Assembly (NCBI GenBank): GCA_000002435.2
Contig: CM018790.1
Origin: Giardia intestinalis
Lineage: Eukaryota
Direction: 5' to 3' (one strand)
DNA length: 64,000 nt
Shown one piece after another: positions 1 through 15,600 of this stretch. A model generated the notes under the pieces. It saw nothing but the letters and a program-made list of their open reading frames with translations, had not been told where the DNA came from and made no database searches. Made by a program: the position numbers and the translations under genes. Each line of letters begins with the position of its first letter. The first letter of the stretch is position 1.

Positions 1-656
1 AAAGGGACACTTGTGCGGCTTTGCTGCGTGTTGTAGACGAGGATGGAGCACAAATACACCCTCTCAGCAGGGCGCTGCTCCTGGGTGAGGAGGTCAGCAC
101 CGAAGTGGTAGGTATGAGTGACGATCTTTGGGCGCAGGACAGCTTTGGGTGGTGCCCTCTTTTGTACGCGATAGGCTTTAATCGTGCGTATGCTGTGCGC
201 TGCATTTTGTCCTGCGAAAAGCAGCCTCCACCTAACAACATCCTTGAAGCGGCCTTACACATTGCACTTGCTTCACGAGGCTCAGATGAGGTGTTGAGTG
301 AGCTTCTAGAACGTCTAGATAGATATAAGATCACTGTAAGGACCCGAAGAAGGTATGGGGACGTTACCCTAATCAAAACTGAGCTTATGCATGCGGCAGC
401 AAAGGGCAGTGAGGATGAGGTTCGTAAGTACATTCACCAGTTGGGGAAGACCGTTGCAAGTTTAGAGGGAGGAACAGCCCTGATCTGTGCTGTCTCAGGA
501 GGTCACGTCGGGTGCTGCCGACTACTGTACAGGGAACTAGGTATGCAGGACAAGCGCGGACGTACTGCACTCGACCATGCAGAAGAGGGTGGGCACTCTG
601 AATGTATGTGGCTTCTTCGGCATGAGTCCGGCCTGTCAAAAAATGAAGCCCAATGA
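1..656 (+). CDS. Ankyrin-repeat protein (Giardia 'Protein 21.1'-like), 5'-truncated by window start
   Basis: The reading frame is open from base 3 with no upstream stop. The annotated 'M' at 21 is a TTG codon. Ankyrin-like repeats are visible (…GWCPLLYAIGFNRAYAVRCIL…, …GGTALICAVSGGHVGCCRLLY…, …GRTALDHAEEGGHSECMWLL…). The stop TGA is at 654-656. Confidence 0.6.
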   Translation, partial: RDTCAALLRVVDEDGAQIHPLSRALLLGEEVSTEVVGMSDDLWAQDSFGWCPLLYAIGFNRAYAVRCILSCEKQPPPNNILEAALHIALASRGSDEVLSELLERLDRYKITVRTRRRYGDVTLIKTELMHAAAKGSEDEVRKYIHQLGKTVASLEGGTALICAVSGGHVGCCRLLYRELGMQDKRGRTALDHAEEGGHSECMWLLRHESGLSKNEAQ

Positions 657-2850
657 CCACGTAAAGCTTACGCCTCTGGGAGCAGGCAACGAGGTCGGTC
701 GCTCTTGCTTTATTCTGTCATATCAGCGGAGTGGCTGCTCTGGGAGCATCATGCTGGACTGCGGGCTCCACCCTGCCCTGTCCGAGACACGCGACTACGT
801 TGCAATTCAGGCGCTCCCCTTCTTCGATTTAGAGGACTACGTCTCCACTTTGTCCCTTATCCTCATCACCCACTTCCATAACGACCACATAGCCGCTCTT
901 CCTTATTTACTGCGGTGCCTTCGTGACCGAGCTGTTAAGGAGGGGAAGCCAGAGCTCCACTACATCCCTCCAGTTTATATGACAGCACCAACTCTAAAGA
1001 TTTTCAAGGAAAGCGTCACTGATGTCATCTCCCAGACGAAGCTCTACACCCACGAAGATGTGGAGTTTATGGCCAAGAACACTAAACTACTCACGAGCTT
1101 CTACCAGACAGAGCGGGTCAATGGGATATCTTTTACCGCAATGCCGGCAGGTCACGTCATTGGAGCGGCCATGTTCCACATTAGTATAGATAATTTCCAC
1201 GCCCTCTACACTGGTGATTTCAGTTGTGAGCCGGAGGACAGGCATCTTCAGCCTGCTACATTCCCCCAGGTAAAGCTTGATTTGCTTATAATTGAGTCTA
1301 CGTATGGGACCATTCGTCAAAAGGAACGCATGACCAGAGAGCGTGATTTTATAGATCTCATAGTTTCGACCGTCAAAAAAGATGGCTGTGTGTTGCTGCC
1401 AGTGTTTTCTATAGGCCGTGTCCAAGAGCTTCTTTGCATCTTACAAGAGTACTGGCGAGAACATGAGCAAGAGATGGCTAGAGTTACGATCTACTACGTG
1501 TCTGCAATTGCTGATAATGCACGGCAATTGTATTCGAAGGATAAGGGCTTCCTGCGCCACGGAGACACAGGACTGTCCGACATTCAAACAGGGAAGCGTA
1601 AAGATAGAATAATCTACACGAAGACGCGGCCCAAAAATCCGAAAAAGCCCTATGTGATGTTCTGCACACCTGGAATGCTTCAGTCCGGTGTCTCAAAGGA
1701 AATGTATAACGAGTTGTGCGGATCTCCTGACAACCTCCTGCTTGTCACGGGATACGCAACTCAGGACACTCTTCTCTATAAGCTTCTTGAGGGAAAACCT
1801 CCTGGGGGTTATGCGGACGCCAAGATGCGTATTGAGGAGCTGTCCTTTTCCGCTCACTCGGACTACAATCAAACACTCGATGTCCTACGAAAGACTCGCC
1901 CACGTAATGTCGCGTTCATCCACGGTAGTGAGAAGAGCATTTCATCGTTAAAAAGAACCATCGCCAATGAAACCAGGGTCAACTTCAGCGAGGGAGGCAA
2001 GGAAGCAGACAAAGAAGAAATATCGTTTCATTATCCTCGTAACGGAGAAACTGTCACCTTCGCCTTCACAAATCCTGTGCAGCTGAGCATCAAGGTTGAC
2101 ACTGGTGCAGAAGACACTGCACAGACAGGAGTTGAGGACTCTCGCTCCATCGCAGCGATAGCCAAGGCATTGGACAAGAAGAAGATGTACATCGTGCAGG
2201 ACGGATTTGCGTTTTCGTTATACAATGCGTCATCGGTAAAGAAGAAGATGCAAAGATCGTGCGGTGGGATCACACTTAATATGAGTTTGACAATTGTGGG
2301 AGATAGCCCACTGACAGAGATATTTGAGAGTCATGGATTCCGGGTTACTGATTTGGGAACAGCCATCCTCTTGGTGCCCGGACTAGAGGAGATGCATGAC
2401 ACTGTACAAGGCGCCGGGACAGAGCCAAAAGATGGGAGCAATGCAATATCCCTGGCTGTGACGACATCATCTAGAGATGTCAAGCGGGTAACTCTTTCAT
2501 TTGATCTCTTCTCAAGCGTATCTGCTCTTTGCATACGTATCCTGTACATTATCCACTCGGCATCAAAGCTGCAAAAAGAAACGTCTCAAACATGCTTAGA
2601 CCTTCCATCTGTTTGCCAGCGTATTGGAGCATCTCTATTAGAAAATTTCAACGTTCAGTTGCACGAGTCGCCCACACAAGAACTGACTGCATCTTCTCCT
2701 CCTTACATTGTTATCGGTGATGTGAGATGTTTTCTAAATTTTCGTGGTTGGAACTTTGATCCTGTTTTCCCGTTGGAGAAAAAAGACTTTACTCTCCTCT
2801 CCGACATCTCGGACCACACTAACTGTTTGGTGCGAACACTCCTCCCGTGA
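643..2850 (+). CDS. CPSF73-like metallo-beta-lactamase/beta-CASP endonuclease (cleavage and polyadenylation specificity factor 73 kDa subunit or Integrator-11 family)
   Basis: The N-terminus MKPNDHVKLTPLGAGNEVGRSCFIL…MLDCGLHP…LILITHFHNDHIAALPYLL carries the MBL HxHxDH motif in the typical CPSF73 arrangement, followed by beta-CASP-like segments. The ATG at 643 is preferred over 577 or 622 because of its A-rich context caaaaaATG. It overlaps the upstream gene's stop by 14 nt. Confidence 0.85.
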   Translation: MKPNDHVKLTPLGAGNEVGRSCFILSYQRSGCSGSIMLDCGLHPALSETRDYVAIQALPFFDLEDYVSTLSLILITHFHNDHIAALPYLLRCLRDRAVKEGKPELHYIPPVYMTAPTLKIFKESVTDVISQTKLYTHEDVEFMAKNTKLLTSFYQTERVNGISFTAMPAGHVIGAAMFHISIDNFHALYTGDFSCEPEDRHLQPATFPQVKLDLLIIESTYGTIRQKERMTRERDFIDLIVSTVKKDGCVLLPVFSIGRVQELLCILQEYWREHEQEMARVTIYYVSAIADNARQLYSKDKGFLRHGDTGLSDIQTGKRKDRIIYTKTRPKNPKKPYVMFCTPGMLQSGVSKEMYNELCGSPDNLLLVTGYATQDTLLYKLLEGKPPGGYADAKMRIEELSFSAHSDYNQTLDVLRKTRPRNVAFIHGSEKSISSLKRTIANETRVNFSEGGKEADKEEISFHYPRNGETVTFAFTNPVQLSIKVDTGAEDTAQTGVEDSRSIAAIAKALDKKKMYIVQDGFAFSLYNASSVKKKMQRSCGGITLNMSLTIVGDSPLTEIFESHGFRVTDLGTAILLVPGLEEMHDTVQGAGTEPKDGSNAISLAVTTSSRDVKRVTLSFDLFSSVSALCIRILYIIHSASKLQKETSQTCLDLPSVCQRIGASLLENFNVQLHESPTQELTASSPPYIVIGDVRCFLNFRGWNFDPVFPLEKKDFTLLSDISDHTNCLVRTLLP

Positions 2851-2880
2851 CTCTCTCTTCTTCAGGAAATGCCCGTCTTG

Positions 2881-4887
2881 TCATATGGATTGCAACCCGC
2901 ACAGCTTAAGTGTCTCTACGGGATATACCAAGTGAAAGTCGTGTCCACCAACAGATCTGAAGACTATATTGATTCTAGGGCAGTACTTTTCAAACTGCTC
3001 TTTAGCTTTAGCACACTGAATGATTGCATCGTCGTTTGCTAATACTAGGACTGTTTCTAAATCGAGGTCGTCAAGCCTGGTAAAGTATTCCTTCCCAGAA
3101 GTCCAGGGGAATGCTGCTGAGCTGTTGATGGCCTGCTTTATAGCGCTGGTGCAGCGACTTCGAACATGCGACTCATATTTTCGCTTGACGTTTGCCTGTA
3201 GAGGCTCTGGGAGGTACTTAACCCGGTCAGCACAATCCAAAAACGTCTTGAGGGCAAGCGTTGGATATACAGACATGAGAGGCTGAGTTATACGCGCCAG
3301 GATGGGGTGATCACGCATAAAAATCAGCTTTCGGTTCAGCTCCATCACCATACCGACGGGAGCTAGCAGCACCACCTTGTCAACGATATCTTTCAAGATC
3401 GGGGCCATGGCTGCAGCCATTAGGCCTCCGCTAGAATGCCCCACTAAGGTTATCTTTTGCTGAGAAGAGGTTGAGTTGATCAGTTTGTATGTTCTCACTG
3501 GGTAACGGACCGTTGTCGCTGTCGCTGCAGCAGAAGGCCCTGAGGGATTGTTTTCGTCCTGCGGATTCAGCTCTGCCGGAGGTTGAACTGGTGAACCCGG
3601 AGGCTCATCAAGTATCTCGAATCCATGTATCCAGTTAAGCACTGGCAGAGAAAGGACCTCTAAGCAATACCTTATTAGAGTGTCTATGTCATAGGAGTCT
3701 CCTGGTGTTCCGTCACTTCCTCCTGTTGCTGGCCAGTCGAACGTGAGAACTTCATGCGTCATTGCAAGGGCATTGATGAAGGGAGCATTAATCGTTGTGT
3801 CGAAGTCGAAACCATGCAAAAAGAGCACTCTCGGGTATTGTTCCGTCGAGGGGTCCACTGTTATGCTATCGATTTGATTCTGCTCCTTCAGTGCTTTGTC
3901 GACAGCATCGCACACGGGGTTATCCAATGCTTCACCTGTATCCTTTGGTGTGCTTGCGTCTGTCTTGGGGACTGTGGATACAGGTGGGGTTTCAAGGCTT
4001 TCGTCTTGGTATCCAGCGTTGCGGTTAGGATTATCTGCAGAAACGTCCACTAGAGACACTCTTCCGTTATCGGCTGTGTTCTTTAGTATATATGCGCTGT
4101 GCACGGTACCAGCCCGTGGATGTGAATAGTATATTTTGCACATCCCAAGCGCAGGAAGTTTGCATGCTTGTATCTTTGTTGGGTTGAGCTCCAGCCATTC
4201 CAGTGGATATTTAATCAAGAGATCCGTGGAAGCGGGGAGACGCTCGAGTGGCGGTGGGTCGACCAGCCTGTCTACCGTATCCGTGTCAAAGAACGAGACT
4301 GCACGCATGTCTGGGTTGTTCAGGTAAATGTCTTCCTTCATGCTTTCGGTGAGGATCTTTCCTGGATCGTCGATGGGAGTTGCTGTAAATACGGGGTATT
4401 TGGGCAGTTTTAATGCAGAAGCAGGATCAGCAACAGGATCGTCAAGTCTTGAAACTGTCTCGAGGTATGGCCTTAGAGGTATACTAACTGGTGGCGGGTA
4501 TGCTCCCGGGGAGCGACCACTGACTCCTCTGTCATTGGGAGAGGATTCAAGAACTAGTGGTGTCTCAAAATGCTGTAGACTCTCTATCTCAGATATATCT
4601 CTAGACTGTTCCGGCACATAATCTGCTTCCTTCGCCTCATGGGCAGGGCTGGGCTGCCCTTCGGGAGAGTTTATAGCATTCATAGCTTGGGAGACCTCTT
4701 GCTGGACCTTATCTGCCATGGCCTCGGGGCTAGTAACGCCCAGAGTGACCTCTCCAGCAGGTGAAATAGTGACTTGCTCTGCAAGAGAAGCCTTCTCAGC
4801 GTCCGTGAGCTCGGTGGTAAAGACTACCTCATGGTCACTGTTCGCATCGTTGCCCGCGGGACTTGTTGGATCGCCAGACGGTGTCAT
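2881..4887 (-). CDS. alpha/beta-hydrolase fold protein with a roughly 340-aa low-complexity (P/S/D/E-rich) N-terminal extension
   Basis: C-terminal domain: VLFLHGFDFDTT…FDWPATGGSDG; nucleophile elbow LVGHSSGGLMAAA; …VLLAPVG…; a C-terminal GHDFHLV His motif. The start ATG at 4887 has the context ggaaaaaataATG. Confidence 0.75.
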   Translation of the reverse strand: MTPSGDPTSPAGNDANSDHEVVFTTELTDAEKASLAEQVTISPAGEVTLGVTSPEAMADKVQQEVSQAMNAINSPEGQPSPAHEAKEADYVPEQSRDISEIESLQHFETPLVLESSPNDRGVSGRSPGAYPPPVSIPLRPYLETVSRLDDPVADPASALKLPKYPVFTATPIDDPGKILTESMKEDIYLNNPDMRAVSFFDTDTVDRLVDPPPLERLPASTDLLIKYPLEWLELNPTKIQACKLPALGMCKIYYSHPRAGTVHSAYILKNTADNGRVSLVDVSADNPNRNAGYQDESLETPPVSTVPKTDASTPKDTGEALDNPVCDAVDKALKEQNQIDSITVDPSTEQYPRVLFLHGFDFDTTINAPFINALAMTHEVLTFDWPATGGSDGTPGDSYDIDTLIRYCLEVLSLPVLNWIHGFEILDEPPGSPVQPPAELNPQDENNPSGPSAAATATTVRYPVRTYKLINSTSSQQKITLVGHSSGGLMAAAMAPILKDIVDKVVLLAPVGMVMELNRKLIFMRDHPILARITQPLMSVYPTLALKTFLDCADRVKYLPEPLQANVKRKYESHVRSRCTSAIKQAINSSAAFPWTSGKEYFTRLDDLDLETVLVLANDDAIIQCAKAKEQFEKYCPRINIVFRSVGGHDFHLVYPVETLKLCGLQSI

Positions 4888-4980
4888 TATTTTTTCCTAG
4901 AATGCGAATTCGTACTATAAACCCTGCGAAACTACTAATGTACGAACCCTACAAAGAGAGCTCCGCGGTGATAAAATAAA

Positions 4981-6192
4981 TCACCCTTGCTCAATTATAC
5001 CTAAGACTTCCCGCAACTGAGACTCAGTTCTGCAGAGCACATTTAGATCAATGTCGCGAACCGTTTCGTCAATGTTCAGAACTGACCGGATCTGAGCGAA
5101 GACCTTAGCTCGTCTTTCATTAGAGTAGCTCATGAGATAAGCTGCACAGTTGAAAAGACGCATGTTGCGTTCGCGAACAGGGTCTTTACTGGTATCGTAG
5201 ACCTTTGAGCGGAAAGTGCTGGACAGCCCTGCATCTGACAATGAGTGCTGAGCCTGCGAGATGCTCGGAGCAGCAGTGATAGTATTGCCTTTTTGTTGCG
5301 ACGAGGCAGACCTCGCGCGTTTCTGTACTGGCTGAGTTTCTTTCAATGCTGAGGTGGTCAGTGTAGAACTGTTCATGGGGGTTAAGGCTCCAGACGCGGG
5401 TCTAAACTCATTGAGTGTGGATGGAAGGTCAAAGGTCACCTTCTTGCTTGCGGAGCATCCGGACCCAGGGTCATCCACGGCATTCAAAGGAAAAGATGCA
5501 GGATCAGCCTCTTTATTAAAAGAGCTAGTGCTGTTGGGACAAGCAGAAGTGGATAAGCGCGAGCCGGACCTTAGGGGTCTCGGGGTCTTACTCTTATTAT
5601 TAGGCTGAGTGTCCAGAGATCCAGAGGGATGAGGGGCAAAAAGGAGATCCAGGGCATCAGAGTCCGACTTCGGTACGGGCTTTCGTGCAACATGCTGCTT
5701 CATATTAACGGGGCACGCGAAATAACGCTCGACCTCAAGGAAGATATCATTAAAATGCTTAGCCTTTGCTGAGACTATCCTCCCTTCAAAGACGTTTGCT
5801 TGGAACACACGAATGATCTCGTTATAAAGTCGCCCCGTAGCCTCTATGATGGGTGTACAGTTTTTTGGACGGAGTGCCTGCTCTAGCGTGTACCCAGGTT
5901 TGATATTAAATCGAATGCTGTTATACGTGATCAGAAGAAAGTGGTAGCTGATCTGGCCTATCTCTGAGTAGTGACCGCCCTTCAGATTAGCCAGAATGTT
6001 TTTGAATGCACATGGGTCTTTGATATTGGTCCTATATGTTTGACAGAAACCCGCGTCATGCGCGTACGTCTCCAAGACAGGGGTCTTGAAAATGCTCGAC
6101 AGAACCTCGTTTTCAATAATATTAAGGAATGCGCCTTCCACTGTCTTCGTCAGAGGACCCTTCATCCACGCAATGAGGGGAGCAAGAGACAT
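4981..6192 (-). CDS. hypothetical protein (403 aa), structured N-terminal domain followed by a Ser/Thr/Pro-rich linker
   Basis: Long ORF with Giardia-like codon usage. It is divergent from the gene at 6272 across an A/T-rich 79-bp spacer. I did not recognise any family. Confidence 0.5.
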   Translation of the reverse strand: MSLAPLIAWMKGPLTKTVEGAFLNIIENEVLSSIFKTPVLETYAHDAGFCQTYRTNIKDPCAFKNILANLKGGHYSEIGQISYHFLLITYNSIRFNIKPGYTLEQALRPKNCTPIIEATGRLYNEIIRVFQANVFEGRIVSAKAKHFNDIFLEVERYFACPVNMKQHVARKPVPKSDSDALDLLFAPHPSGSLDTQPNNKSKTPRPLRSGSRLSTSACPNSTSSFNKEADPASFPLNAVDDPGSGCSASKKVTFDLPSTLNEFRPASGALTPMNSSTLTTSALKETQPVQKRARSASSQQKGNTITAAPSISQAQHSLSDAGLSSTFRSKVYDTSKDPVRERNMRLFNCAAYLMSYSNERRAKVFAQIRSVLNIDETVRDIDLNVLCRTESQLREVLGIIEQG

Positions 6193-6271
6193 CGGACTCC
6201 GAGAGCGATCCTTTTGCTTGCAAAAAGAATATGAAAAAGAATATGAAAACTGAAATCAGAAGACTAAAAAC

Positions 6272-7333
6272 ATGCACGCCCTTAACCAGGACTGCTTCAC
6301 CACGATTTCCGTGCCTTCGGTCGAAAAGTTGCGAGTCTTCCACTCCATCCCTCATGGCATAGACAACCCTCCGCGCCTTCTTTTCCTTCATGGTTACTCT
6401 TTCTTTACAGACCTCTACGCCACTCTGCTTAACGAACTTTGCACCCACTTCGAGGTCCTCGCGTTTGATTCTCCTGGTACTGGGGGCTCTGGTCCCATCT
6501 TCGACGGCGATTACACCGTCAACAGCCTCGTCGAGGTTGCTCTAGAACTATTGACTATTAGCCAGCTGAGATGGGTTCCCCGTGCGGCTTCGGTCCTGTA
6601 CAAGGCGAACATGAAGTACGACCCTGACAAAATGCTCGATTCGCAATCGGGGGAGGACAGGCAGCTAGCCGAATCATTGGTCGAGTCACTGGCCTTGAGC
6701 ACAGATAGGAAGAAGTTTACCATTGTTGGACACTCTATGGGCGCATTTCTAGCAGCAGAACTTACAGTAGCGTGCTGGAACTGCGTGGAAGCCGTCTATA
6801 TGGTAGCCCCAGCGGGGATCAAGTGCGAATTGAAGAACTTCTGGTCAGACCTCTGCGGCGGTGCTTTAGGAATATTCAGGAGAGCATATGCGAAGCTGCG
6901 CCATAAGCAGACCATAGAGAAATGGGTGGCTATTCAACAAGACAGTCTGGCACAGGGGCGCTCTGTGACACATGCCGAGCAGATGCAAAGAGATTTCTCT
7001 GAGGCGTATTTGGCTAACTCAAAAGCAGCCGTTTCTCGCTTTTGCTGCCTGGTGGACTTCCCGTGGTCTAACGGGCATGACGTGTTTAGAGAATTGGAAT
7101 CTATAATAGAGAAGAAGGGGTTGAACGCTTACTGCTATCTAATGGAGCAAGACGAGATAATATCGTACAAGGATGTCAGTGCCTTCTTCAGAGACATCAT
7201 GCCCAATTGCCGTCTGCACACCGTTTCGGCCGCCAATCATGACTGGGTGAACGACCACCCCCATCTACTGGTTCATAACATAATTAACGACCGGGCTCAT
7301 CTGACTGCGGCTACGTCTAGTGTCGAGATCTAA
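6272..7333 (+). CDS. alpha/beta-hydrolase fold protein (paralog of 2881-4887 and 8845-9768)
   Basis: PRLLFLHGYSFFTDLY…FDSPGTGGSGP; nucleophile elbow IVGHSMGAFLAAEL; …MVAPAGIKCEL…; C-terminal …NHDWVNDHPH (His). A-rich initiator ctaaaaacATG. Confidence 0.8.
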   Translation: MHALNQDCFTTISVPSVEKLRVFHSIPHGIDNPPRLLFLHGYSFFTDLYATLLNELCTHFEVLAFDSPGTGGSGPIFDGDYTVNSLVEVALELLTISQLRWVPRAASVLYKANMKYDPDKMLDSQSGEDRQLAESLVESLALSTDRKKFTIVGHSMGAFLAAELTVACWNCVEAVYMVAPAGIKCELKNFWSDLCGGALGIFRRAYAKLRHKQTIEKWVAIQQDSLAQGRSVTHAEQMQRDFSEAYLANSKAAVSRFCCLVDFPWSNGHDVFRELESIIEKKGLNAYCYLMEQDEIISYKDVSAFFRDIMPNCRLHTVSAANHDWVNDHPHLLVHNIINDRAHLTAATSSVEI

Positions 7334-8729
7334 CTGTATAAAATATTCCGTTATTGGGGTCACATCCCCAAAATTGCATGCCAGGAACATCTTTTATGGT
7401 CTCTTCAATTGCGCTCACGTATGCGTTCTGCTCGTGTTGCCCAGGTAGTTCGGTCTGTGTAGCAAGGAACATATCTCTTTTATTTAGGAAGCCGTCGACT
7501 TCCAGACCAAATAGCCCTATCTTGACCGTGCTAGTGCCATGCTCTTTGCTGAGATCTATGTAGCCTGGCCAGAAGAGACGGCCGTATCCATTTCCAAGCA
7601 CTAGGTTCCGAAGACGTTTGGGCTTCTCTGACTGCGCCTCAGAGCTGTAAACTTTTATAGATTTAGTGGCGGCTATTGTGCCTCCAGACTCATCAGCGGA
7701 ATGCAATCTAGTCTCCAACGGTGGAGCGCTGAACTTCACTGCAAACTGCTTAAGGTTCTTTTCATGCTTCTGCTGCATACGCTCAAGGTGCATTTGCTTC
7801 CGTGTTTGTCTATCTGCTTGGCGACGAAGCTTCCGTTGCTCCCTTCGTTCTGCTTTAGCCTTTCTCTTTTCAGCAATCATCCTTTCTTGATCCTCCCGAT
7901 CTTGCTGCATCTTAGTTAAATGAGTTTCTAACTTCATTTGGTTTTCCTGCACGCAGTAGTTATTGCCGTCGGCGAAAGATGACAGTTGCTGGGCAGTGTC
8001 GGAAGTAATATCATCGTGGTCAGACGCGTCTGATGAGGAGCAAGTGAGAGGCGGAAACTCGTACACGCGTGCTTGAATGCTATCCAGGGAGCAGACTGAG
8101 GCATTGTGCTGCCGAATTTCCTCCATGTAAGAGCTAATATGAAGATCAAACTCGCACGATGTCAGCGGAGTAAGCTGATAAGGCGGGAGCACCTGAGTTT
8201 GCCCTGTAGGCATGTCCCATGAGGGAGGCGCTAGTATCTCTGGCTTTTCTAACGACAGATTGCAAGCGTCGCTATAGCCGAAGTTATGAGGATAAACCGA
8301 GTTATAAGAAGGTTGGTAGATATTCGTGCAAGAGATGGGTGGCTGCTGATAGAATGATTCAGGGTTGACAGGCTGGGGAAAGACCTCCTGAGGGGCGTAA
8401 TTATATAGTACTTGCTGATGTGGCTGGCTAGAAAACTGTGATGGAAACGGATAAACAGGGTCTGTGACAACGTTCTGTGGTTGTGAATAGGGCTGCTGCG
8501 GCCCGGAGCTGTGCATAGGTTGCGGTGGCTGAGAAAAGCCAAAAACTGACGGGGATGTGTGTGCTTGCATGGGCGGGTCTTCGTCAAGCAAGAGTGGCGG
8601 ATCATCATCGGATCGCGGAAGCCGCGGAGCACCTGGAGGAGCCAGCTGACGAGCAAACGAGACTGGGGTGCTCTGCAGCGCCTGAGGGTCAAGCTGTGGC
8701 GGAGAGGTAACACCGCTTGCCGAGTACAT
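7317..8729 (-). CDS. hypothetical Pro/Gln-rich protein with a basic coiled-coil segment
   Basis: Large ORF. The track start at 8741 is a GTG; the first ATG lies 4 codons later, at MYSASG…. There is an in-frame stop immediately upstream. Its 3' end overlaps the convergent hydrolase gene by 17 nt. Confidence 0.5.
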   Translation of the reverse strand: MYSASGVTSPPQLDPQALQSTPVSFARQLAPPGAPRLPRSDDDPPLLLDEDPPMQAHTSPSVFGFSQPPQPMHSSGPQQPYSQPQNVVTDPVYPFPSQFSSQPHQQVLYNYAPQEVFPQPVNPESFYQQPPISCTNIYQPSYNSVYPHNFGYSDACNLSLEKPEILAPPSWDMPTGQTQVLPPYQLTPLTSCEFDLHISSYMEEIRQHNASVCSLDSIQARVYEFPPLTCSSSDASDHDDITSDTAQQLSSFADGNNYCVQENQMKLETHLTKMQQDREDQERMIAEKRKAKAERREQRKLRRQADRQTRKQMHLERMQQKHEKNLKQFAVKFSAPPLETRLHSADESGGTIAATKSIKVYSSEAQSEKPKRLRNLVLGNGYGRLFWPGYIDLSKEHGTSTVKIGLFGLEVDGFLNKRDMFLATQTELPGQHEQNAYVSAIEETIKDVPGMQFWGCDPNNGIFYTVRSRH

Positions 8730-8844
8730 GGGCGTTGGCACCGGTTTCTGGGCCCTTCTTTCTCAGTAGATATCTGTTGCAAAAATTGAAAAACGCCGTT
8801 ATAACGTTTCAAGTCCATTTGGCACCAATAAGTTGAGACAAAAA

Positions 8845-9768
8845 ATGGAGCACGGACATGACGCCTCGGACCCCATTGAGGAGTACTTTTTGCCCCGGGA
8901 GAAGGTGAGCTTCATCTCTGTGGAAGGATATCAGCAGGTGAAACTGTTTCGCTCAATAAAGGATAAGAGTGGACCCTGGGTTTTGTTTCTTCACGGACTG
9001 ACTTTCTACACCGATATATGTGCGGCATTTCTCAACAAGTTGTCTCGCAAGCATAATGTGCTCTCCTTCGACTGGCCCGGGGTGGGCGGTACAGATCCTT
9101 CCCGCAACGATATCTACACTCCACAAGAATTGCTCGGCTTTGCAGAGAAAGTTGTTGAAGCAGCAGAGCCGGGCCTGCCTGGCAGAGGCCTCAGTATCGT
9201 TGGGCACTCTATGGGCGGGCTCATGTCCCTTATCTTAGCAACTCACTATCTAAAGCAGGGATTTGATATAAAGAACGTTATCATGCTCGCCCCGGCAGGA
9301 GTCAAGGTCCACAAGTGGATGACTCACAGGCTGCTCACCACTCCGATCATAGGCCCTGTTCTGAACTTCATTTTTAAGAGATTCCCAGACGCCACCGCGA
9401 AGCGCATAGTCTACGAAACCCGCTACAACTTCCATTACATGCCAAAGCATATGGAGGAAGCGCTGTGGGAGCCTTTCAAGAAGAGCATGCTTCGCGACAC
9501 GAGGGTCACCGCAGCCCGCACCCTTGCCTTTGCGCAGTTTCCCTGGGAAAACCACGAAGAGCTTTTTATAGAGTTGGATAGGAGTAAGGTTAATGCAATA
9601 GTCGTGCTAGCTGGGCGCGATGTCACCATAGATACCCCCGCCACAGAGCACTTCTTGCGGACCAAGTGCTCTTCTATAAGCATACAAGTGTACCCAGATT
9701 ATACTCACGACCTTGTGGCCTGTAACGCAGATGTCATTACGGAATATATTTCTGCCGTCTTGCCGTAG
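8845..9768 (+). CDS. alpha/beta-hydrolase fold protein (third paralog)
   Basis: PWVLFLHGLTFYTDIC…FDWPGVGGTDP; nucleophile elbow IVGHSMGGLMSLILA; …MLAPAGVKV…; …YTHDLVACN. The ATG at 8845 has the context gacaaaaaATG; the track start at 8833 is a non-ATG codon. Confidence 0.8.
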   Translation: MEHGHDASDPIEEYFLPREKVSFISVEGYQQVKLFRSIKDKSGPWVLFLHGLTFYTDICAAFLNKLSRKHNVLSFDWPGVGGTDPSRNDIYTPQELLGFAEKVVEAAEPGLPGRGLSIVGHSMGGLMSLILATHYLKQGFDIKNVIMLAPAGVKVHKWMTHRLLTTPIIGPVLNFIFKRFPDATAKRIVYETRYNFHYMPKHMEEALWEPFKKSMLRDTRVTAARTLAFAQFPWENHEELFIELDRSKVNAIVVLAGRDVTIDTPATEHFLRTKCSSISIQVYPDYTHDLVACNADVITEYISAVLP

Positions 9769-9946
9769 CCGGATAGATGCCTAAATCTGCGCCCAGGCAG
9801 GGAAACTGGGATTCAGATAATTAAATTTTCTATGTTTGTCTCCTTTAATCGCCCTCAGGTGGAGTCCATATTTTAATTTTGTGACTCGAGTTTGGTCCTG
9901 TGTCTACCTGGGAGTCTTTTTTGCTTCTCGCTAAACTGGCATACCG

Positions 9947-10876
9947 ATGGACATCCATCTCATTTACCCCTTAGATTACAGTTGGACTCAGATTGTTTGC
10001 GCATTAGAAGCCATCGGGATCCATGTTAGCAAAGATAAGAGTGAGGCGTTTTTAACGCTTTTTTCTGAGACAAGCCATCTTTCACACACGCAATACATGG
10101 AGACGACGTGCATCAGCTTCGACGCCCTTCCTCATGGTATCGGGGTGTTGCTATTCTTTCTCCCCGCAGACAATTATCTCGGAGAAGCCGTGCTCGCCAG
10201 AAACATAGGTACATTCATGCTTCTTCCTAGCCGTCTTTTTGTCATAGACCCCTCTTGCAGACGCCAACACTATCCAGCCCATAGAGATGCATCCAGTGTG
10301 GTGGGTGCCAACCTGTCTCCTATCCCCACATTCAGATTGCCCGACGACATTGCTCCGTTGAAGTGCTCCATCTGCTCGTACTTGGGCCTCGTCTTGCATA
10401 AGCGGGCCTTGCCCGACGTTGTACAGGCGTCCTCACTCTGCCTGCTTGTCTGGGAGTGGATAAGACGCTATGAGGAGACTGCGTCAAACGCTACAGTCGA
10501 GAGCATACGACACTTTGGCCGGCTTGTTGGGGGGAATCTCCGAAACGAGATGGTCTCCAGTGACCCAGGAGCTCGTGAGCAGGTGCAAGTACAGCTGACG
10601 ACCCTAGCAAACTTCGTTCGCAGCATTCTTCATAAGAGCTGCACAAATACTTCGATGATACTGGGCCACTGCACGCTAAAAGAATACAAGCTACAAATCT
10701 TCATTTACGTCAGGTACAGGCCAGCAACCTTTCAGATACTGCTGGGCCACATGCTTGCAAGCATTTGCTGGTCGTTCACGGGAAGCAAGGAGGACACAGT
10801 CGTTTGCAGCCAGGACAAGACACATCTCGCCATCTCTGTTCTACTGCATCGCCCGCCTAGCTCACCCCATGCTTAG
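9947..10876 (+). CDS. hypothetical protein (309 aa)
   Basis: ORF length only. No family recognised. Confidence 0.45.
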   Translation: MDIHLIYPLDYSWTQIVCALEAIGIHVSKDKSEAFLTLFSETSHLSHTQYMETTCISFDALPHGIGVLLFFLPADNYLGEAVLARNIGTFMLLPSRLFVIDPSCRRQHYPAHRDASSVVGANLSPIPTFRLPDDIAPLKCSICSYLGLVLHKRALPDVVQASSLCLLVWEWIRRYEETASNATVESIRHFGRLVGGNLRNEMVSSDPGAREQVQVQLTTLANFVRSILHKSCTNTSMILGHCTLKEYKLQIFIYVRYRPATFQILLGHMLASICWSFTGSKEDTVVCSQDKTHLAISVLLHRPPSSPHA

Positions 10877-10908
10877 ACGTCTAGTATTGCTATCGTCATT
10901 GGCGGCAC

Positions 10909-11079
10909 TCATGAAAGGTGTGCCTCAAACTCTTTGGACGCCTCTACAAGGTAGTTGCCAATGAACTCGATCGCGTCTTTGGGCTTTCTGCATATTGCCT
11001 CTGCAAATGCATTGGACAGCTGCTCACCAACTGCTTCGGTAAGATACTTAATCGTCGCCTGGTCAATCCTCGTGTCCAT
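10909..11079 (-). CDS. DPY-30/RIIa-motif small protein (56 aa), not in the ORF track
   Basis: Minus-strand translation gives MDTRIDQATIKYLTEAVGEQLSNAFAEAICRKPKDAIEFIGNYLVEASKEFEAHLS. This matches the DPY-30 dimerisation/docking motif (compare human DPY30 …[44 protein letters not shown]). The A-rich initiator is ggggaaaagagATG and the stop is TGA. Confidence 0.65.
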   Translation of the reverse strand: MDTRIDQATIKYLTEAVGEQLSNAFAEAICRKPKDAIEFIGNYLVEASKEFEAHLS

Positions 11080-11177
11080 CTCTTTTCCCCAAGAATTTGA
11101 TATATGATCAATTCAATTTTTTTGTCACATAATTTATTTTAATTGCACTTGTCCATATTAACTTCATGCTTTTATGA

Positions 11178-11828
11178 ATGGAACAACTCGTAGTCCGGGA
11201 TATACAGGGAACGGAGGACCTCGAGGTGCTCAAGAAGAAGCACATCGCCCTGATAGTTAAGGACGGCATGTCCTCTGCGGCATTTTACAAGGTCTACAAT
11301 AGCATTTTGTGCCGCTATCCAGATGACCACGTCCTGCTCAATGGGGTGTTTTCCTTGCTGATGCTCATCCTGCTCGATATAGGTACAGAGCGACCGGAGA
11401 TACCACAGGATGACGCGCTGGTGGACACTGTTCACTCTTATTACAAGGCACTCCAGGGCACCTTAGAGTACAAGGAGTTTCTGTCGTCTCTGCGCTCCAT
11501 GCTCCCGTTCATCATGCAGCTAAATATTGATGCTGGTCGATTGTTTCAGATTATTCTTTTTCAAAGGACTCCGGCTGAGCTAAGGTATGAAACATTTGCC
11601 TCTGCAGAGGAGATTAGGGCCATGTGGGAATCGGATATCCTTTGCTTTGATTGTGGCGTGTACCTTAAGTATGGGAAGAGCGGTCATATATGTACCCATG
11701 CTCCGCAGCTTTCTGAACGGTTGTCCACAACCCAGAAGATTCAGAGAAACTGGGGTCCAGTGCGCTTTGAGTGGGTTGCAGAGCGGGTTCACGAGCCAAC
11801 CAACATCCCCTTTGTGCGAGTCGTCTGA
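11178..11828 (+). CDS. hypothetical protein (216 aa) with a C-terminal Cys/His cluster (CFDCGVYLKYGKSGHICTH)
   Basis: ORF preceded by a long A/T-rich spacer. No family recognised. Confidence 0.5.
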   Translation: MEQLVVRDIQGTEDLEVLKKKHIALIVKDGMSSAAFYKVYNSILCRYPDDHVLLNGVFSLLMLILLDIGTERPEIPQDDALVDTVHSYYKALQGTLEYKEFLSSLRSMLPFIMQLNIDAGRLFQIILFQRTPAELRYETFASAEEIRAMWESDILCFDCGVYLKYGKSGHICTHAPQLSERLSTTQKIQRNWGPVRFEWVAERVHEPTNIPFVRVV

Positions 11829-11939
11829 ACTCTAAGCTTGGAGTGGCTAAGCTGTCTCTCGAAAGCCATTCTCTGCTTGTGGATTGGGACTGTGGACAAT
11901 TGGAAAAGGTTCGCAGTTCACTGTGAAGTTGCTAGGCTA

Positions 11940-12641
11940 CTAATAGAAGTTAGATGCGTCTGTTCTGTAGTTGGCTTCGTGTGCCTTGCGCGCGATTTCT
12001 CTTGGGTTCTTCTCTACTTCAGGGGGAGAATTGCTAGTTGGTTTGAAGCCGGCCTGATTGAACCCATAGTTCATGTCATATCCATAGTTGGGGTTTGATA
12101 GAGCATCAGACGACTTGCCTGGTCTATCCATACTTGCCTGTTCAATCGCCCGCTGTCTGAATTCGTCATAGGTGGCTGAGGAGTCAGAGGGAATGACATG
12201 CGACTCTTGACCCTTCTTGTTGATACCGATGGACGTGTGTAAACTAGCCTCTTCCAAAGCAGGATCTGCTCTGACGTGAAACTGGTCCTTAGGTCTCTGT
12301 GTGCTCACGTGGACACTGGGAGGCGGCAACTTGCGGATCAACTCACCATTGGCATCAAGGTCGCCCCCTGGGCTTATGAGTACGCCCTCATCCTTGCGCT
12401 TATGCTCGCTGTTGTGCCTTGTAGCAAGCTCTGCATGCTCAGCAGACCTCTGAGCTGCGTAATCCTTCATGTCATTATCGGACATAAAGACTATCGATGA
12501 AGAAGTGTTTGCACCCGGCTTCATTCTGCGACCGGGAAGGGGCTGCTCTGCCGTTGCATCTCCAGTCTCGAAGGTTATCTGTGAGACCATTTGCTTCTGT
12601 ATGCGCGTGGGCACAGGGTCTGGGGGCGCCATCCAGGACAT
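11940..12641 (-). CDS. hypothetical low-complexity protein
   Basis: I take the start as the ATG at 12641 (MSWMAPP…). That gives a 14-bp A-rich spacer (tagctttaaaaaaag) shared with the divergent gene at 12656. The track start at 12674 would overlap that gene. Confidence 0.5.
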   Translation of the reverse strand: MSWMAPPDPVPTRIQKQMVSQITFETGDATAEQPLPGRRMKPGANTSSSIVFMSDNDMKDYAAQRSAEHAELATRHNSEHKRKDEGVLISPGGDLDANGELIRKLPPPSVHVSTQRPKDQFHVRADPALEEASLHTSIGINKKGQESHVIPSDSSATYDEFRQRAIEQASMDRPGKSSDALSNPNYGYDMNYGFNQAGFKPTSNSPPEVEKNPREIARKAHEANYRTDASNFY

Positions 12642-12655
12642 AGCTTTAAAAAAAG
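12642..12655. promoter_or_regulatory. 14-bp A/T-rich bidirectional promoter/initiator spacer between divergent genes
   Basis: The sequence tagctttaaaaaaag separates the minus-strand ATG at 12641 from the plus-strand ATG at 12656. Confidence 0.45.
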
Positions 12656-15600
12656 ATGCTTGTGGATAGAGCACACAGCCTTCCGCTGGGCACCACCATA
12701 CGTGGGTTCACAGTTGTGGAGAGTGAGTACGTATCGGAGACAAGTACCCAACTCATTAAGCTGATTCACGAACAGTCTGGCCTCACCGTCTTCAAGCATA
12801 TCCCACAAGATGCCAGCTACACAGAGAACAGCGCAAACATTGCATTCGCGACGTTTGCATCTGATGATAAGGGCCTCCCGCATATAACAGAGCATTCCGT
12901 CTTCTGTGGGTCCGAGCTTTATCCCCACAAGGATCCCTTCAACGAGGTGACCAAGACGTCTCTCAAGGTTTACAACAATGCGTTCACGGCGCAAACTCAC
13001 ACTGTCTACGAGTTTGCCTCTCGCTGCAAGCGAGACTACTTCAACATTCTGTCTGTGTACTTAGACGCTGTCTTTCGTCCCGCCCTGCTTAAAGACCCGC
13101 GCATCTATGCCCAGGAAGGTTGGCACCTGCACCTCGAGACAGAAGATGGCGAGATTGTCCAGTCTGGAATTGTCCTCAACGAAATGAAGAGCCGTTGTGC
13201 GTCACCCTCCACTGTTCTTGTGTATAATCTCCAGCGCCTCCTCTATGGTGGTACTGCAATGGGCTACGAGACGGGAGGCCTGCCAGATGCAGTGGTTACA
13301 GGCACTCACACGGATATAGCTGAGTTCTACAAGCGTTTCTATTACCCTGGGAACTGTGTCATTGCTTTCCACGGGAATATTCCTCTAGAAGATGAGCTTC
13401 GGGCAATTGTGGAACCATACTTGCTTGATTATGTCGGCGGAGAAGGCCCTGCCTTATCAAAGCGGTCTCCACCTACCCCAATCCTATATAGAGACCAGCC
13501 TAATTTACCAGAGCTAACGAAGGATGAGGTCTCTGCACAGGCGCGCGTCTCCAGCCGGTCTGCTCGCCGAGTCCGTTTCGTAGAGTACGGCGTGTCCAAG
13601 GAGACAAAAGCCTTGAAAAAGGAGGGAATAATAGGCAGGATTTACTATCTCTTCGACCTCCGTGACGCGACGCCCCTCTTGCTTCTCTCCGTCCGTGTGC
13701 TGGACTACATCCTTTTTGATCAGACGTCGAGCCCTGTGCCAGAGAGCCTTCAGTCTTCTTCGCTTTGCAAATCTTGCTATTCCATGTTAGACTGTACTGA
13801 GCTGCAGTGCACTCTCTACTTGTCTTTTCTTGGCTGTGAGCACACAGAGGAAGGGTACCTTGCGCTTATCAGCGCATACGAGGACCTCTTGACTGAGCTT
13901 ATGTCTCCCGAGAGGGATGGTCAATACTATCGCTTCCTCTCTCCCCAAGCTGTTGACGCCGCACTGAATCACATTGAGCTCGAGTACCGGGACATCAGGC
14001 CGTATTCTGGCCTTGGGGTAAACAATCGCACCATTAGCGCCGCTCTAGCAGGCTGTCCCAGCACTACGCGATTGCTCTATGAGGAGCCCCTGCGAGAGCT
14101 TCGCAAGCTGGTGATAGACGGTACCGTAACAGAGTATCTCTGTGGCGTTCTGGCTAAGTATCTTACCGCTCTAAACCCCCATCAGGCCGATGTTGTGCTA
14201 GTGCCCATTCCAGGGTATCTTGAGCAGTGTGAGGAGGCAACGCAACAGCGTCTAAGAGCTCTCAAGGCATCCATGTCGCCTGAAGACATACAGGCCCTGA
14301 TTTCTAACACCAAGAGTCAGATTCGCCGCGCGCTGGAACCAACTCCACAGGAGATAAACGAGCTACTTCCCATGCTGAGGATTGAAGAGATAGACGCTGT
14401 CAACACAGATATGTTCAAGGCCCAGTCGTTCCTTCACTACGATCTGAGAGTGAGCCCTCACCTCATGCCTGTCCTATACTGTCATACTGGCGAGCAAGGG
14501 AAGAATCTGACCTACCTCGAAGTGTGTACGGATATTACAGACATGTGCGACCTTGAGACTCTTCCCCTCCTCTCTCTTCTTGCCAATCACATCCTAGGCG
14601 AGGTTGCTACCACCTCATACAAGACAGTTGAAAGCTTGCACAGGGCAATTGATTATTACACTGGGGACTTCTCCATCTCCTTAAAAGCAGAAGATATCCC
14701 CCCATTCCTCCGGGACGTGAAGCACCCCACCTCTCAGACATGCACATCTATACCATCAAGAATTTATATGAGCATAAGTGCAACTTGTAAGGACACAGAT
14801 ACAGAAGCAGTTCTACGACTCATATTCCACGAGATCTTGGGCGGCTCAATTGTGGGCCTTACAAACCCTCGCGTGCTTCTCCGCCTACTTCACGAGTTCT
14901 GGATGTCTCTCAGAGAGGATATAGTGGAAGGAGATGGTCACTTGGTGGCAAGCAGGCGGGCCAGTGCTGTGTGCGGTCGCCTTACGTCCTTCGTATATGA
15001 ACTAGCGTCGGGGCCATCTATGTACAACTGGCTCAGCAAGTTTCTCAGGGACACCCTTGCAGATCATAGCTCCGGAACCGGCAGCTTAGAAGATGGCAGC
15101 GGGGCCGCAGAAGAAGAGATTTGCCATAGTGACAACTCCTTTGAGGGAGATGATAACGAAGATGAAGACGACGCTTTCCTAGACAATGATTCCACAAAGC
15201 AAGAGCTCTGTCTCCTCGGAGAGCAGCTGGCAGCTCTTCTTGCCAAAATGTGCGCTCGCCCGGAGCTCTTTCTCGTCTGCGTTGGTCAGCGCATCTCAGA
15301 CCTAGCTCCTTACGTAGCAAAGACCAGGTATGCTCCAGAGGACATGAGGAAGATCCAATCCATCTTGGCACAGCATACATTTAATGCCGAATTGCTCCGT
15401 GTAGTTGACAACTCGTATTCTCTGAGGCCGGGGAAGCTGAGTCTATGGGTGAAGAGGCGCAACACTTGTCCACTGGCTGAGCAGTTTAATCGCTTGCTGA
15501 CATGGTATCGTTGCGAGGATCAGTCTCTGCCCTTGGACGCTGACTTGGCCGACTACTCTGGTGTCTTTAATAGCCTAGCGATCCCAAGCGACGTCTCCTA

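What the first reader, a model, noticed from the sequence alone, without database searches (positions are those of the whole stretch)
2881..9768. Local cluster of three paralogous alpha/beta-hydrolase genes on alternating strands, interleaved with unrelated genes
Genes at 2881-4887 (-), 6272-7333 (+) and 8845-9768 (+) share the same architecture. Each has LFLHG…F(D/Y)(W/S)PG(T/V)GG(S/T) near the N-terminus, a (L/I)VGHS(M/S)G nucleophile elbow, …LAP(A/V)G…, and a C-terminal (H/G)HD… histidine. Ser-Asp-His triads therefore look intact in all three. They are clearly diverged (about 35-45% identical by eye), so the duplications are not recent. The first copy has additionally acquired a roughly 340-aa acidic, Pro/Ser-rich disordered N-terminal extension. 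Retention of three diverged catalytic paralogs within 7 kb suggests sub-functionalised lipases, esterases or peptidases. In a lipid-scavenging parasite this could relate to phospholipid remodelling.
Basis: seen in the sequence. Interest (0 to 1): 0.5.

Follow-up and report, generated by a model that had tools for sequence, protein, structure and literature searches.

The report
Giardia ENC6 hydrolase gene trio
The three genes are real, anciently duplicated alpha/beta-hydrolase paralogues of Giardia intestinalis, but they are already annotated in the reference genome (two as "ENC6 protein", first described in 1996 as an encystation-induced transcript), so the finding is correct but ordinary, and their substrate is still unknown.

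Summary
The three ORFs exist at the stated coordinates. All pass Pfam Abhydrolase_1/6 and keep the HG, GHSxG, Asp and His motifs.

They are identical to G. intestinalis WB reference proteins:
- A = XP_001705929 "ENC6 protein" (GL50803_102961, the ENC6 of Que et al. 1996).
- B = XP_001705926 "ENC6 protein" (GL50803_24372).
- C = XP_001705923 "Alpha/beta hydrolase family protein".

- Pairwise identity is 24-29 %, not 35-45 %.
- A's "340-aa extension" is a ~223-aa disordered N-terminus, then the conserved beta1-beta2 hairpin, then a ~90-aa insertion.

The cluster A-bromodomain-B-hypothetical-C is syntenic in another assemblage and in G. muris. Each paralogue has its own G. muris orthologue (bootstrap 94-99 %), so the duplications predate the genus split. 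The trio belongs to a subfamily seen so far only in fornicates (Spironucleus, Hexamita, Dysnectes), plus a fourth Giardia copy elsewhere.

The nearest solved relative by sequence profile is human ABHD6 (1e-25). Fold searches do not discriminate, and there is no membrane anchor. Published RNA-seq shows induction during encystation.

One unexpected point: the G. muris orthologue of A has lost both the nucleophile Ser and the HG motif.

Verdict: already known genes, function uncharacterised, low interest.

The parts
2881..4887 (-). Gene A: ENC6 protein, 668 aa (XP_001705929.1 / GL50803_102961). It is an alpha/beta-hydrolase with a long disordered N-terminus.
   Evidence: ORF. Pfam Abhydrolase_1 at 6.2e-16. 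Exact identity to the WB reference, and the original ENC6 cDNA AAB40524.1 sits in the same cluster and matches residues 436-668. The gene ID follows from the GLP15_2991 orthology.
4219..4887 (-). A residues 1-223: acidic, Pro/Ser-rich, predicted disordered N-terminal tail.
   Evidence: pLDDT <50. Composition and net charge. pN 0.139 between assemblages, so it is constrained but looser than the core. A comparable tail is present in the G. muris orthologue P0010.
4114..4218 (-). A residues 224-258: the beta1-beta2 hairpin that starts the hydrolase fold (YPLEWLELNPTKIQACKLPALGMCKIYYSHP).
   Evidence: pLDDT 75-88 with two strands. It aligns with the N-terminal hairpin of B, C, P0010 and P0011. pN 0.012, the most conserved segment.
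3844..4113 (-). A residues 259-348: low-confidence insertion between beta2 and beta3.
   Evidence: pLDDT mostly <50. Absent from B and C.
2884..3843 (-). A residues 349-668: catalytic core plus helical cap. Contains HG 358-359, Ser485 (GHSSG, 3427-3441), Asp620 (3022-3036), His649 (2935-2949) and a disordered insert at 432-463.
4981..6192 (-). Interleaved, unrelated gene: bromodomain-containing protein, 403 aa (XP_001705927.1).
   Evidence: Pfam Bromodomain at 1.1e-5. Identity to the reference. Same position between A and B in another assemblage and in G. muris-like contigs.
6272..7333 (+). Gene B: second 'ENC6 protein', 353 aa (XP_001705926.1 / GL50803_24372). Contains HG 40-41, Ser155 (GHSMG, 6728-6742), Asp294 and His323. 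It carries a roughly 45-aa insert after helix A that starts with the same L-x-W-[IV] motif as A's insert.
   Evidence: The gene ID was mapped from CH991763 coordinates.
7317..8741 (-). Interleaved, unrelated gene: hypothetical protein, 474 aa, P/Q-rich. Its 3' end overlaps B's by 17 nt.
   Evidence: ORF. No Pfam or PDB match. 55 % aa identity between assemblages. Not related to the bromodomain gene.
8845..9768 (+). Gene C: 'Alpha/beta hydrolase family protein', 307 aa (XP_001705923.1). This is the compact form without inserts. Contains HG 50-51, Ser122 (GHSMG, 9202-9216), Asp259 and His288.
   Evidence: The AF2 model has pLDDT 74 and a canonical fold with a helical cap at residues 159-231.

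Best explanation
The window is from Giardia intestinalis assemblage A (WB). The three genes are the annotated ENC6 / ENC6-like / alpha/beta-hydrolase trio.

Origin (shown). They arose by local duplication of one alpha/beta-hydrolase gene before G. intestinalis and G. muris diverged. They have been kept in the same order, with the same two unrelated genes between them, under purifying selection. They belong to a small subfamily found so far only in fornicate protists (Giardia, Spironucleus, Hexamita, Dysnectes). The subfamily is marked by LHGF-x-F, D-x-PG-x-G, GHSxGG, APAG and a cap-end FPW motif. Giardia has a fourth, unlinked member.

Predicted biochemistry (inferred from sequence and models). 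Each protein is predicted to be a soluble enzyme with no signal peptide or membrane anchor. Each has the canonical eight-stranded core and a helical cap. Catalysis would use the classical mechanism: Ser in the GHSxG elbow attacks an ester (or thioester or amide) carbonyl, His and Asp act as the charge relay, and the oxyanion is stabilised by the backbone after HG and after the Ser.

Likely role (inferred). The most likely substrates are acyl esters of lipids of the monoacylglycerol or lysophospholipid type. The divergent caps and inserts would give the three copies different specificities or partners.

Expression (from the literature). Expression rises during encystation. A/ENC6 is up at 7-14 h. 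The B locus is up about 5-fold at 22 h and in cysts. The best guess is acyl-lipid turnover while the cell remodels its membranes for the cyst.
For: Identity and annotation:
- Exact matches to XP_001705929 and XP_001705926 ('ENC6 protein') and XP_001705923 ('Alpha/beta hydrolase family protein'). The 1996 ENC6 cDNA falls in A's cluster.

Fold and motifs:
- Pfam scores are above the cutoffs. The triad and HG are invariant in all G. intestinalis copies.

Paralogy and age:
- Pairwise E is about 1e-22.
- In the NJ tree the A, B and C clades, each with a G. muris orthologue, have 99/99/94 % support. The Giardia-type clade has 65 %.
- Synteny holds in another assemblage and in G. muris-like contigs.
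- pN is 0.08-0.13 against saturated pS.

Subfamily range:
- An exhaustive HMMER search gave only 9 proteins at E<=1e-30, and scores then fall quickly to generic alpha/beta-hydrolase levels.
- The named members are Giardia, Spironucleus salmonicida, Hexamita inflata and Dysnectes brevis.

Lipid lead:
- The family profile's best solved hit is ABHD6, 1e-25 over the whole domain.
- C alone best matches the yeast monoglyceride lipase Yju3.
- Foldseek of the C model puts ABHD6 and phospholipase PlaF among the top four.

Solubility:
- The highest 19-residue hydrophobic windows are <1.6 and lie in core strands.

Expression:
- PMC3610916 and PMC7743719 cite ENC6 as an encystation marker.
- Einarsson 2016 Table S1 gives FPKM 63 / 93 / 79 / 307 / 362.
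- Rojas-Lopez 2021 Table S3B lists GL50803_102961 among genes up at 7-14 h.
Against: - No substrate evidence exists. A 2023 review states that no Giardia phospholipase A or lysophospholipase has been characterised.
- The FPW motif has no counterpart in ABHD6 (alignment), and the membrane anchor is missing.
- The G. muris orthologue of A lacks Ser and HG, so at least that lineage has a role that does not need catalysis.
- The Einarsson locus for B is merged with the antisense hypothetical gene (window 6272-8730). The late induction may therefore belong partly to that gene.
- The tree is NJ on 284 columns, and deep nodes are weak (A+B 36 %).
Confidence: 0.7

Rival explanations
1. The three are active serine hydrolases, but their substrates are not glycerolipids. 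Candidates include protein or peptide substrates (S33-type aminopeptidase, depalmitoylase or thioesterase) and small-molecule esters.
Against: Hydrolase_4 overlaps Abhydrolase_6 in one clan and is not diagnostic. The best whole-domain sequence matches are monoacylglycerol lipases. No NCBIfam equivalog is approached.
Confidence: 0.25
2. Gene A (ENC6 proper) acts mainly as a non-catalytic scaffold or ligand-binding pseudoenzyme. Its long disordered tail and inserts would mediate interactions during encystation. The triad in G. intestinalis would be dispensable or residual.
For: The G. muris orthologue reads LFLTD and GHGEG in both the reference protein and an independent assembly, while the rest of the domain and the tail architecture are kept. 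The A lineage has the longest branches and the extra disordered segments. The tail is itself under constraint (pN 0.139 against pS 0.71).
Against: All four G. intestinalis assemblage versions of A keep HG, GHSSG, Asp and His. The catalytic core has pN of 0.06-0.11. Loss in one lineage does not show dispensability in another.
Confidence: 0.15
3. The resemblance is only the generic alpha/beta-hydrolase signature. On this view the three genes come from unrelated subfamilies that happen to lie close together.
For: Identity is only 24-29 %, which is typical of many unrelated pairs in this superfamily.
Against: They share subfamily-specific motifs (FPW, APxG, F-D-x-P) that are absent from ABHD6 and generic hits. 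They are each other's best matches by many orders of magnitude. They form a clade with the G. muris copies. Three of the four family members in the genome lie within 7 kb.
Confidence: 0.02

Closest known systems
ENC6 (Giardia lamblia encystation-induced transcript; Que et al. 1996, Mol Biochem Parasitol 81:101; GL50803_102961 and GL50803_24372)
   Same: It is the same thing. A is identical to the reference ENC6 protein and contains the original 247-aa cDNA product. B carries the same annotation. ENC6 is used in the literature as an encystation marker.
   Different: Nothing differs for A and B. C is annotated only as 'Alpha/beta hydrolase family protein', although it is the third member of the same cluster. 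In the papers read here, ENC6 appears only as a transcript or expression marker, and its enzymology is not addressed.
Human ABHD6 (monoacylglycerol / lysophospholipid lipase; PDB 7ots)
   Same: Alpha/beta-hydrolase core with a helical cap, an HG oxyanion motif, a GxSxG nucleophile, and Asp and His in the same order. It is the best solved match of the family profile (1e-25, whole domain) and the top Foldseek hit of the C model.
Yeast monoglyceride lipase Yju3p (PDB 4zwn/4zxf) and bacterial phospholipase A PlaF (6i8w)
   Same: Yju3p is the best single-sequence PDB hit of C (1.9e-7, residues 45-298). PlaF is among the top Foldseek hits for both models. Both are acyl-lipid serine hydrolases with caps.
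   Different: The matches are weak. PlaF is membrane-anchored. The subfamily motifs are not shared.
Fornicate 'Alpha/beta hydrolase family protein' paralogues (Spironucleus salmonicida EST45277/EST47338/EST43318, Hexamita inflata CAI99..., Dysnectes brevis, Giardia GL50581_3165)
   Same: Same subfamily. They share the LHGFNFF, DLPGHG, GHSMGG, PAG and FPW motifs and the same length and architecture as C.
   Different: These are the single-domain form with DLPGHG. The Giardia trio has FD(W/S)P-x-x-GG instead. A and B also have the L-x-W-I insert, and A has the disordered tail. None of these relatives is characterised.

Membership tests
Alpha/beta-hydrolase fold superfamily (Pfam clan AB_hydrolase; Abhydrolase_1 / Abhydrolase_6) | Score above the Pfam gathering threshold | tested here: met
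   For Abhydrolase_1 and Abhydrolase_6 respectively, A scores 59.2 and 48.8, B scores 39.9 and 61.2, and C scores 50.8 and 57.9 bits. The cutoffs are about 26 bits.
Alpha/beta-hydrolase fold superfamily (Pfam clan AB_hydrolase; Abhydrolase_1 / Abhydrolase_6) | Nucleophile elbow Sm-x-Nu-x-Sm after strand beta5, with the acid after beta7 and the His after beta8, in that order | tested here: met
   GHS(S/M)G, then D, then H are invariant in the alignments. Their positions fit the strand order in the AF2 models.
Alpha/beta-hydrolase fold superfamily (Pfam clan AB_hydrolase; Abhydrolase_1 / Abhydrolase_6) | Three-dimensional fold | tested here: met
   [not shown]
Giardia ENC6 (reference annotation) | Sequence identity to the deposited ENC6 proteins and cDNA | tested here: met
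   A and B are exact matches to XP_001705929.1 and XP_001705926.1. AAB40524.1 lies in A's 90 % cluster and matches residues 436-668. C is a paralogue that is not named ENC6.
Giardia ENC6 (reference annotation) | Induction during encystation | not testable with these tools
   Literature only: and 58/88. The locus used for B is merged with the antisense gene.
ABHD6-type monoacylglycerol lipase | Ser-Asp-His triad and HG oxyanion motif aligned with those of ABHD6 | tested here: met
   Profile alignment to 7ots_A over residues 16-283. The crystallised chain reads GTAMGG at the elbow, so its own nucleophile position is not a Ser in that entry.
ABHD6-type monoacylglycerol lipase | N-terminal transmembrane anchor | tested here: not met
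   No 19-residue window has a Kyte-Doolittle mean of 1.6 or more, and the maxima lie in core strands. All the N-termini are polar.
ABHD6-type monoacylglycerol lipase | Orthology (closer to ABHD6 than to other ABHD families) | tested here: inconclusive
   [not shown]
ABHD6-type monoacylglycerol lipase | Hydrolysis of monoacylglycerol or lysophospholipid | not testable with these tools
   Needs an enzyme assay.
[not shown]
   The elbow residue is Ser in A, B and C.
Peptidase S33 (Pfam Hydrolase_4, PF12146) | Score above the gathering threshold and specific similarity to prolyl aminopeptidases | tested here: inconclusive
   C scores 54.2, B 36.6 and A 27.8 bits against a cutoff of 27. The model overlaps Abhydrolase_6 in the same clan. 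NCBIfam pro_imino_pep_2 matched only the fourth paralogue, and far below its cutoff.

The most novel reading that the evidence does not exclude
ENC6 proper (gene A) is drifting from enzyme to pseudoenzyme. In G. muris it has already lost its nucleophile and oxyanion motif while keeping the fold, the cap and the long disordered tail. Its conserved role in encystation would therefore be non-catalytic, for example lipid or ligand binding, or scaffolding through the disordered regions. B and C would carry the hydrolytic activity.
Probability: 0.15. Interest if true: 0.4.

Novelty: already known. Interest (0 to 1): 0.15.

Why it matters
Giardia cannot make fatty acids and depends on scavenged host lipids. 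It is killed by the serine-lipase inhibitor orlistat (PMC3747212), yet no Giardia lipase, phospholipase A or lysophospholipase has been characterised at the gene level (PMC10513453).

A conserved, encystation-induced trio of soluble serine hydrolases is a reasonable candidate set for such activities and for activity-based probing.

That said, the genes, their fold and their clustering are already visible in the reference annotation. This finding adds no new kind of system.

The modest additions made here are:
- the age of the duplications (before the G. intestinalis / G. muris split);
- the subfamily's restriction to fornicates among the named members found;
- the corrected domain map of ENC6;
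- the loss of the catalytic Ser in the G. muris ENC6 orthologue.

Tried and rejected
1. Word-indexed protein searches with C, with B, and with a 19-sequence family alignment returned only Giardia orthologues or generic hydrolases. The exhaustive HMMER search was what revealed the subfamily.
2. NCBIfam gave no hit anywhere near a curated cutoff.
4. I tested whether the two interleaved genes are themselves paralogues, which would mean a two-gene duplication unit. They are not.
5. A remembered likeness of the C-terminus of the hypothetical gene (7317-8741) to the Nup98 autopeptidase domain was not supported by Pfam at E<=10 or by a PDB search.
6. The Myb2 motif CWACAG occurs once, 66 nt upstream of C, and nowhere within 200 nt upstream of A or B. 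It is not enriched in the window (54 observed, 71 expected), so no regulatory claim is made.
7. A first bootstrap run with Biopython timed out and was redone with numpy.
8. dS between assemblages is saturated, so only pN and pS are reported, not dN/dS, except for sub-segments of A.
9. Full-text searches on the gene numbers mostly hit unrelated PMC IDs.
10. Rfam found nothing in 1-14000.

Full report
**Observation**

The window holds ORFs at 2881-4887(-) (668 aa, "A"), 6272-7333(+) (353 aa, "B") and 8845-9768(+) (307 aa, "C"), exactly as reported. All three exceed the Pfam gathering scores of Abhydrolase_1 and Abhydrolase_6.

A three-way alignment shows invariant LFLHG, F-D-x-P, GHSxG, APxG, FPW, a catalytic Asp and a C-terminal H-D. 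The residues and coordinates are A Ser485/Asp620/His649, B Ser155/Asp294/His323 and C Ser122/Asp259/His288.

Pairwise BLASTP gives E of about 1e-22, but identity is only 24-27 % (25-29 % in the alignment). tblastn finds no further copy in the 64 kb.

The genes in between are a bromodomain protein (4981-6192, -) and a P/Q-rich hypothetical protein (7317-8741, -). They are unrelated to the hydrolases and to each other. B and the hypothetical gene converge and overlap by 17 nt.

**What the genes are**

An exact-sequence look-up shows that the window proteins are identical to Giardia intestinalis WB reference proteins:
- A = XP_001705929.1 / KAE8302512.1, "ENC6 protein".
- B = XP_001705926.1, "ENC6 protein".
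- C = XP_001705923.1, "Alpha/beta hydrolase family protein".
- The gene between A and B = XP_001705927.1, "Bromodomain-containing protein".

The original ENC6 cDNA product (AAB40524.1, 247 aa) is in A's cluster and matches A residues 436-668.

The literature names two ENC6 genes, GL50803_102961 and GL50803_24372 (PMC3610916). I assigned them as follows:
- 102961 is A. Its P15 orthologue is GLP15_2991, and C is GLP15_2987.
- 24372 is B. The locus CH991763:121899-124357 ends exactly at B's start codon once the window is placed on that scaffold using GL50803_9506.

ENC6 was described by Que et al. (1996) as an encystation-induced transcript with alternative polyadenylation. Later papers treat it as an encystation marker. 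So the genes, their fold and their adjacency are already in the public annotation.

**Anatomy of A**

The 345 residues ahead of LFLHG are acidic (56 D+E against 27 K+R) and rich in Pro (11 %) and Ser (8.7 %). They are not a single extension.
- In the family alignment, A 227-258 (YPLEWLELNPTKIQACKLPALGMCKIYYSHP) lines up with the N-terminal beta-hairpin of the other members and of the G. muris orthologue.
- The AlphaFold model gives pLDDT <50 for 1-223, 75-88 with two strands for 224-258, mostly <50 for 259-348, about 90 for 349-431 and 464-668, and <50 for the 432-463 insert.
- Between assemblages the hairpin is the most conserved piece (pN 0.012). The tail (0.139) and the first insert (0.161) are looser but still constrained. 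The second insert is nearly free (0.414).

B has a roughly 45-aa insert at the same place as A's second insert, beginning with the same L-x-W-[IV] motif. C has none. The C model (pLDDT 74) shows the canonical core with a helical cap at about residues 159-231.

None of the three has a hydrophobic segment that could be a signal peptide or membrane anchor.

**Evolution**

The same gene order (kinase/ankyrin, CPSF73-like, A, bromodomain, B, hypothetical, C) occurs in a second assemblage. Amino-acid identities there are 76 % (A), 85 % (B) and 83 % (C), against 55 % for the hypothetical gene. Synonymous sites are saturated (pS 0.75-0.82), while pN is 0.13, 0.076 and 0.080. This is purifying selection.

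An exhaustive HMMER search of 1.84 billion representatives with the three-sequence profile found only 9 proteins at E<=1e-30. Scores then fall quickly to generic hydrolase levels. Among the closest hits:
- P0008 and P0010 are G. muris "ENC6 protein" TNJ29685 and TNJ29683.
- P0009 is the G. muris-type C orthologue.
- P0014 is a fourth G. intestinalis paralogue encoded elsewhere (GL50581_3165).
- The remaining named members are from Spironucleus salmonicida, Hexamita inflata and Dysnectes brevis.

In G. muris-like contigs the order B-bromodomain-A is kept, and C has the same downstream neighbours as in the window.

An NJ tree (284 columns, 300 bootstraps) recovers A, B and C clades, each with its G. 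muris orthologue, at 99, 99 and 94 %. A clade of A+B+C plus two proteins from an unidentified GC-rich organism has 65 % support. The fourth Giardia paralogue groups with the other unplaced, unnamed members P0012 and P0013, but with weak support (bootstrap 21 %). The order among A, B and C is unresolved.

Conclusion: the duplications are local, and they are older than the G. intestinalis / G. muris split. They occurred within a subfamily whose named members so far are all fornicates.

**An unexpected detail**

In the G. muris orthologue of A, the oxyanion motif LFLHG reads LFLTD and the elbow GHSSG reads GHGEG. Both changes appear in the reference protein and in an independent assembly. The Asp, the His, the FPW motif, the hairpin and the tail architecture are all kept. 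All four G. intestinalis assemblage versions keep the full set. So "triads intact in all three" holds for this genome but not across the genus.

**Function**

- The 19-sequence family profile hits human ABHD6 best (1e-25 over the whole domain). Next come a feruloyl esterase (1.5e-21), MenH, and others.
- C alone hits the yeast monoglyceride lipase Yju3 best (1.9e-7).
- Foldseek of the C model puts ABHD6 first and phospholipase PlaF fourth.
- NCBIfam offers nothing near a cutoff.

I therefore regard "soluble acyl-ester (probably acyl-lipid) serine hydrolase" as the most likely activity. ABHD6 is a functional analogy, not a demonstrated family membership. The membrane anchor, a defining ABHD6 feature, is absent, and the subfamily's FPW motif is not in ABHD6.

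Published expression data:
- GL50803_102961 is listed among genes up-regulated at 7-14 h of encystation (PMC8700996 Table S3B).
- The GL50803_24372 locus rises from 63 FPKM in trophozoites to 307 at 22 h and 362 in cysts (PMC4807828 Table S1). That locus is merged with the antisense hypothetical gene.
- A 2023 review records that no Giardia phospholipase A or lysophospholipase gene has been characterised.
- Giardia's sensitivity to orlistat has been attributed to unidentified GxSxG lipases.

**Verdict**

The feature is already known and annotated as ENC6, so novelty is nil at the level of kind.

The points worth carrying forward are the loss of the nucleophile in the G. muris ENC6 orthologue and the trio's status as uncharacterised, encystation-linked serine hydrolases in an orlistat-sensitive parasite.

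Noticed in passing
L006 2402-3976 (G. muris-like contig); proteins P0010 and P0156 (TNJ29683.1): The G. muris orthologue of gene A/ENC6 has LFLTD in place of LFLHG and GHGEG in place of GHSSG. Both the oxyanion motif and the nucleophile Ser are lost, while the Asp, the His, the FPW motif and the disordered tail are kept. This is seen in two independent sequences.
   Followed up: partly
window 7317-8741 (-): This hypothetical 474-aa gene lies between B and C. It has a P/Q-rich N-half, a K/R/E-rich stretch and a conserved C-end. It is the fastest-evolving gene of the block (55 % aa identity between assemblages) and has no Pfam or PDB match. Its 3' end overlaps B's by 17 nt. A remembered likeness to the Nup98 autopeptidase domain found no support.
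   Followed up: partly
window 4981-6192 (-): A bromodomain protein sits between A and B and shares a 79-nt divergent intergenic region with B. The same placement is conserved in G. muris-like contigs.
   Followed up: partly
window 577-2850 (+): A CPSF73-like metallo-beta-lactamase / beta-CASP / RMMBL protein converges on gene A with a 30-nt gap. This neighbour is not conserved next to A in the G. muris-like contig.
   Followed up: no
window 10909-11079 (-): A small 56-aa ORF matches the Dpy-30-like gene called at the syntenic position in other Giardia contigs.
   Followed up: no
window 8767-8845: In isolates P15 and DH, gene C is annotated 39-43 aa longer at the N-terminus. In this window that frame is closed by TAG at 8767-8769, and the difference looks like one base in an A-run near 8788-8793. 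ATG 8845 is therefore the start here. A CAACAG (Myb2-type) motif lies at 8774-8779, 66 nt upstream of that ATG.
   Followed up: partly
L005 1807-2664 and L008 3859-4887 (one contig, SRR31929897_24641): An unidentified organism carries two members of the Giardia-type clade (P0016, P0011) about 16 kb apart on one contig. The L005 part of the contig has 62 % GC. Both have a B-like insert starting with x-W-I. The organism was not identified.
   Followed up: no
PMC4807828 Table S1, locus CH991763:121899-124357 = window 6272-8730: The published expression locus named GL50803_24372 merges B with the antisense hypothetical gene. The reported late-encystation induction cannot be assigned to B alone.
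   Followed up: partly
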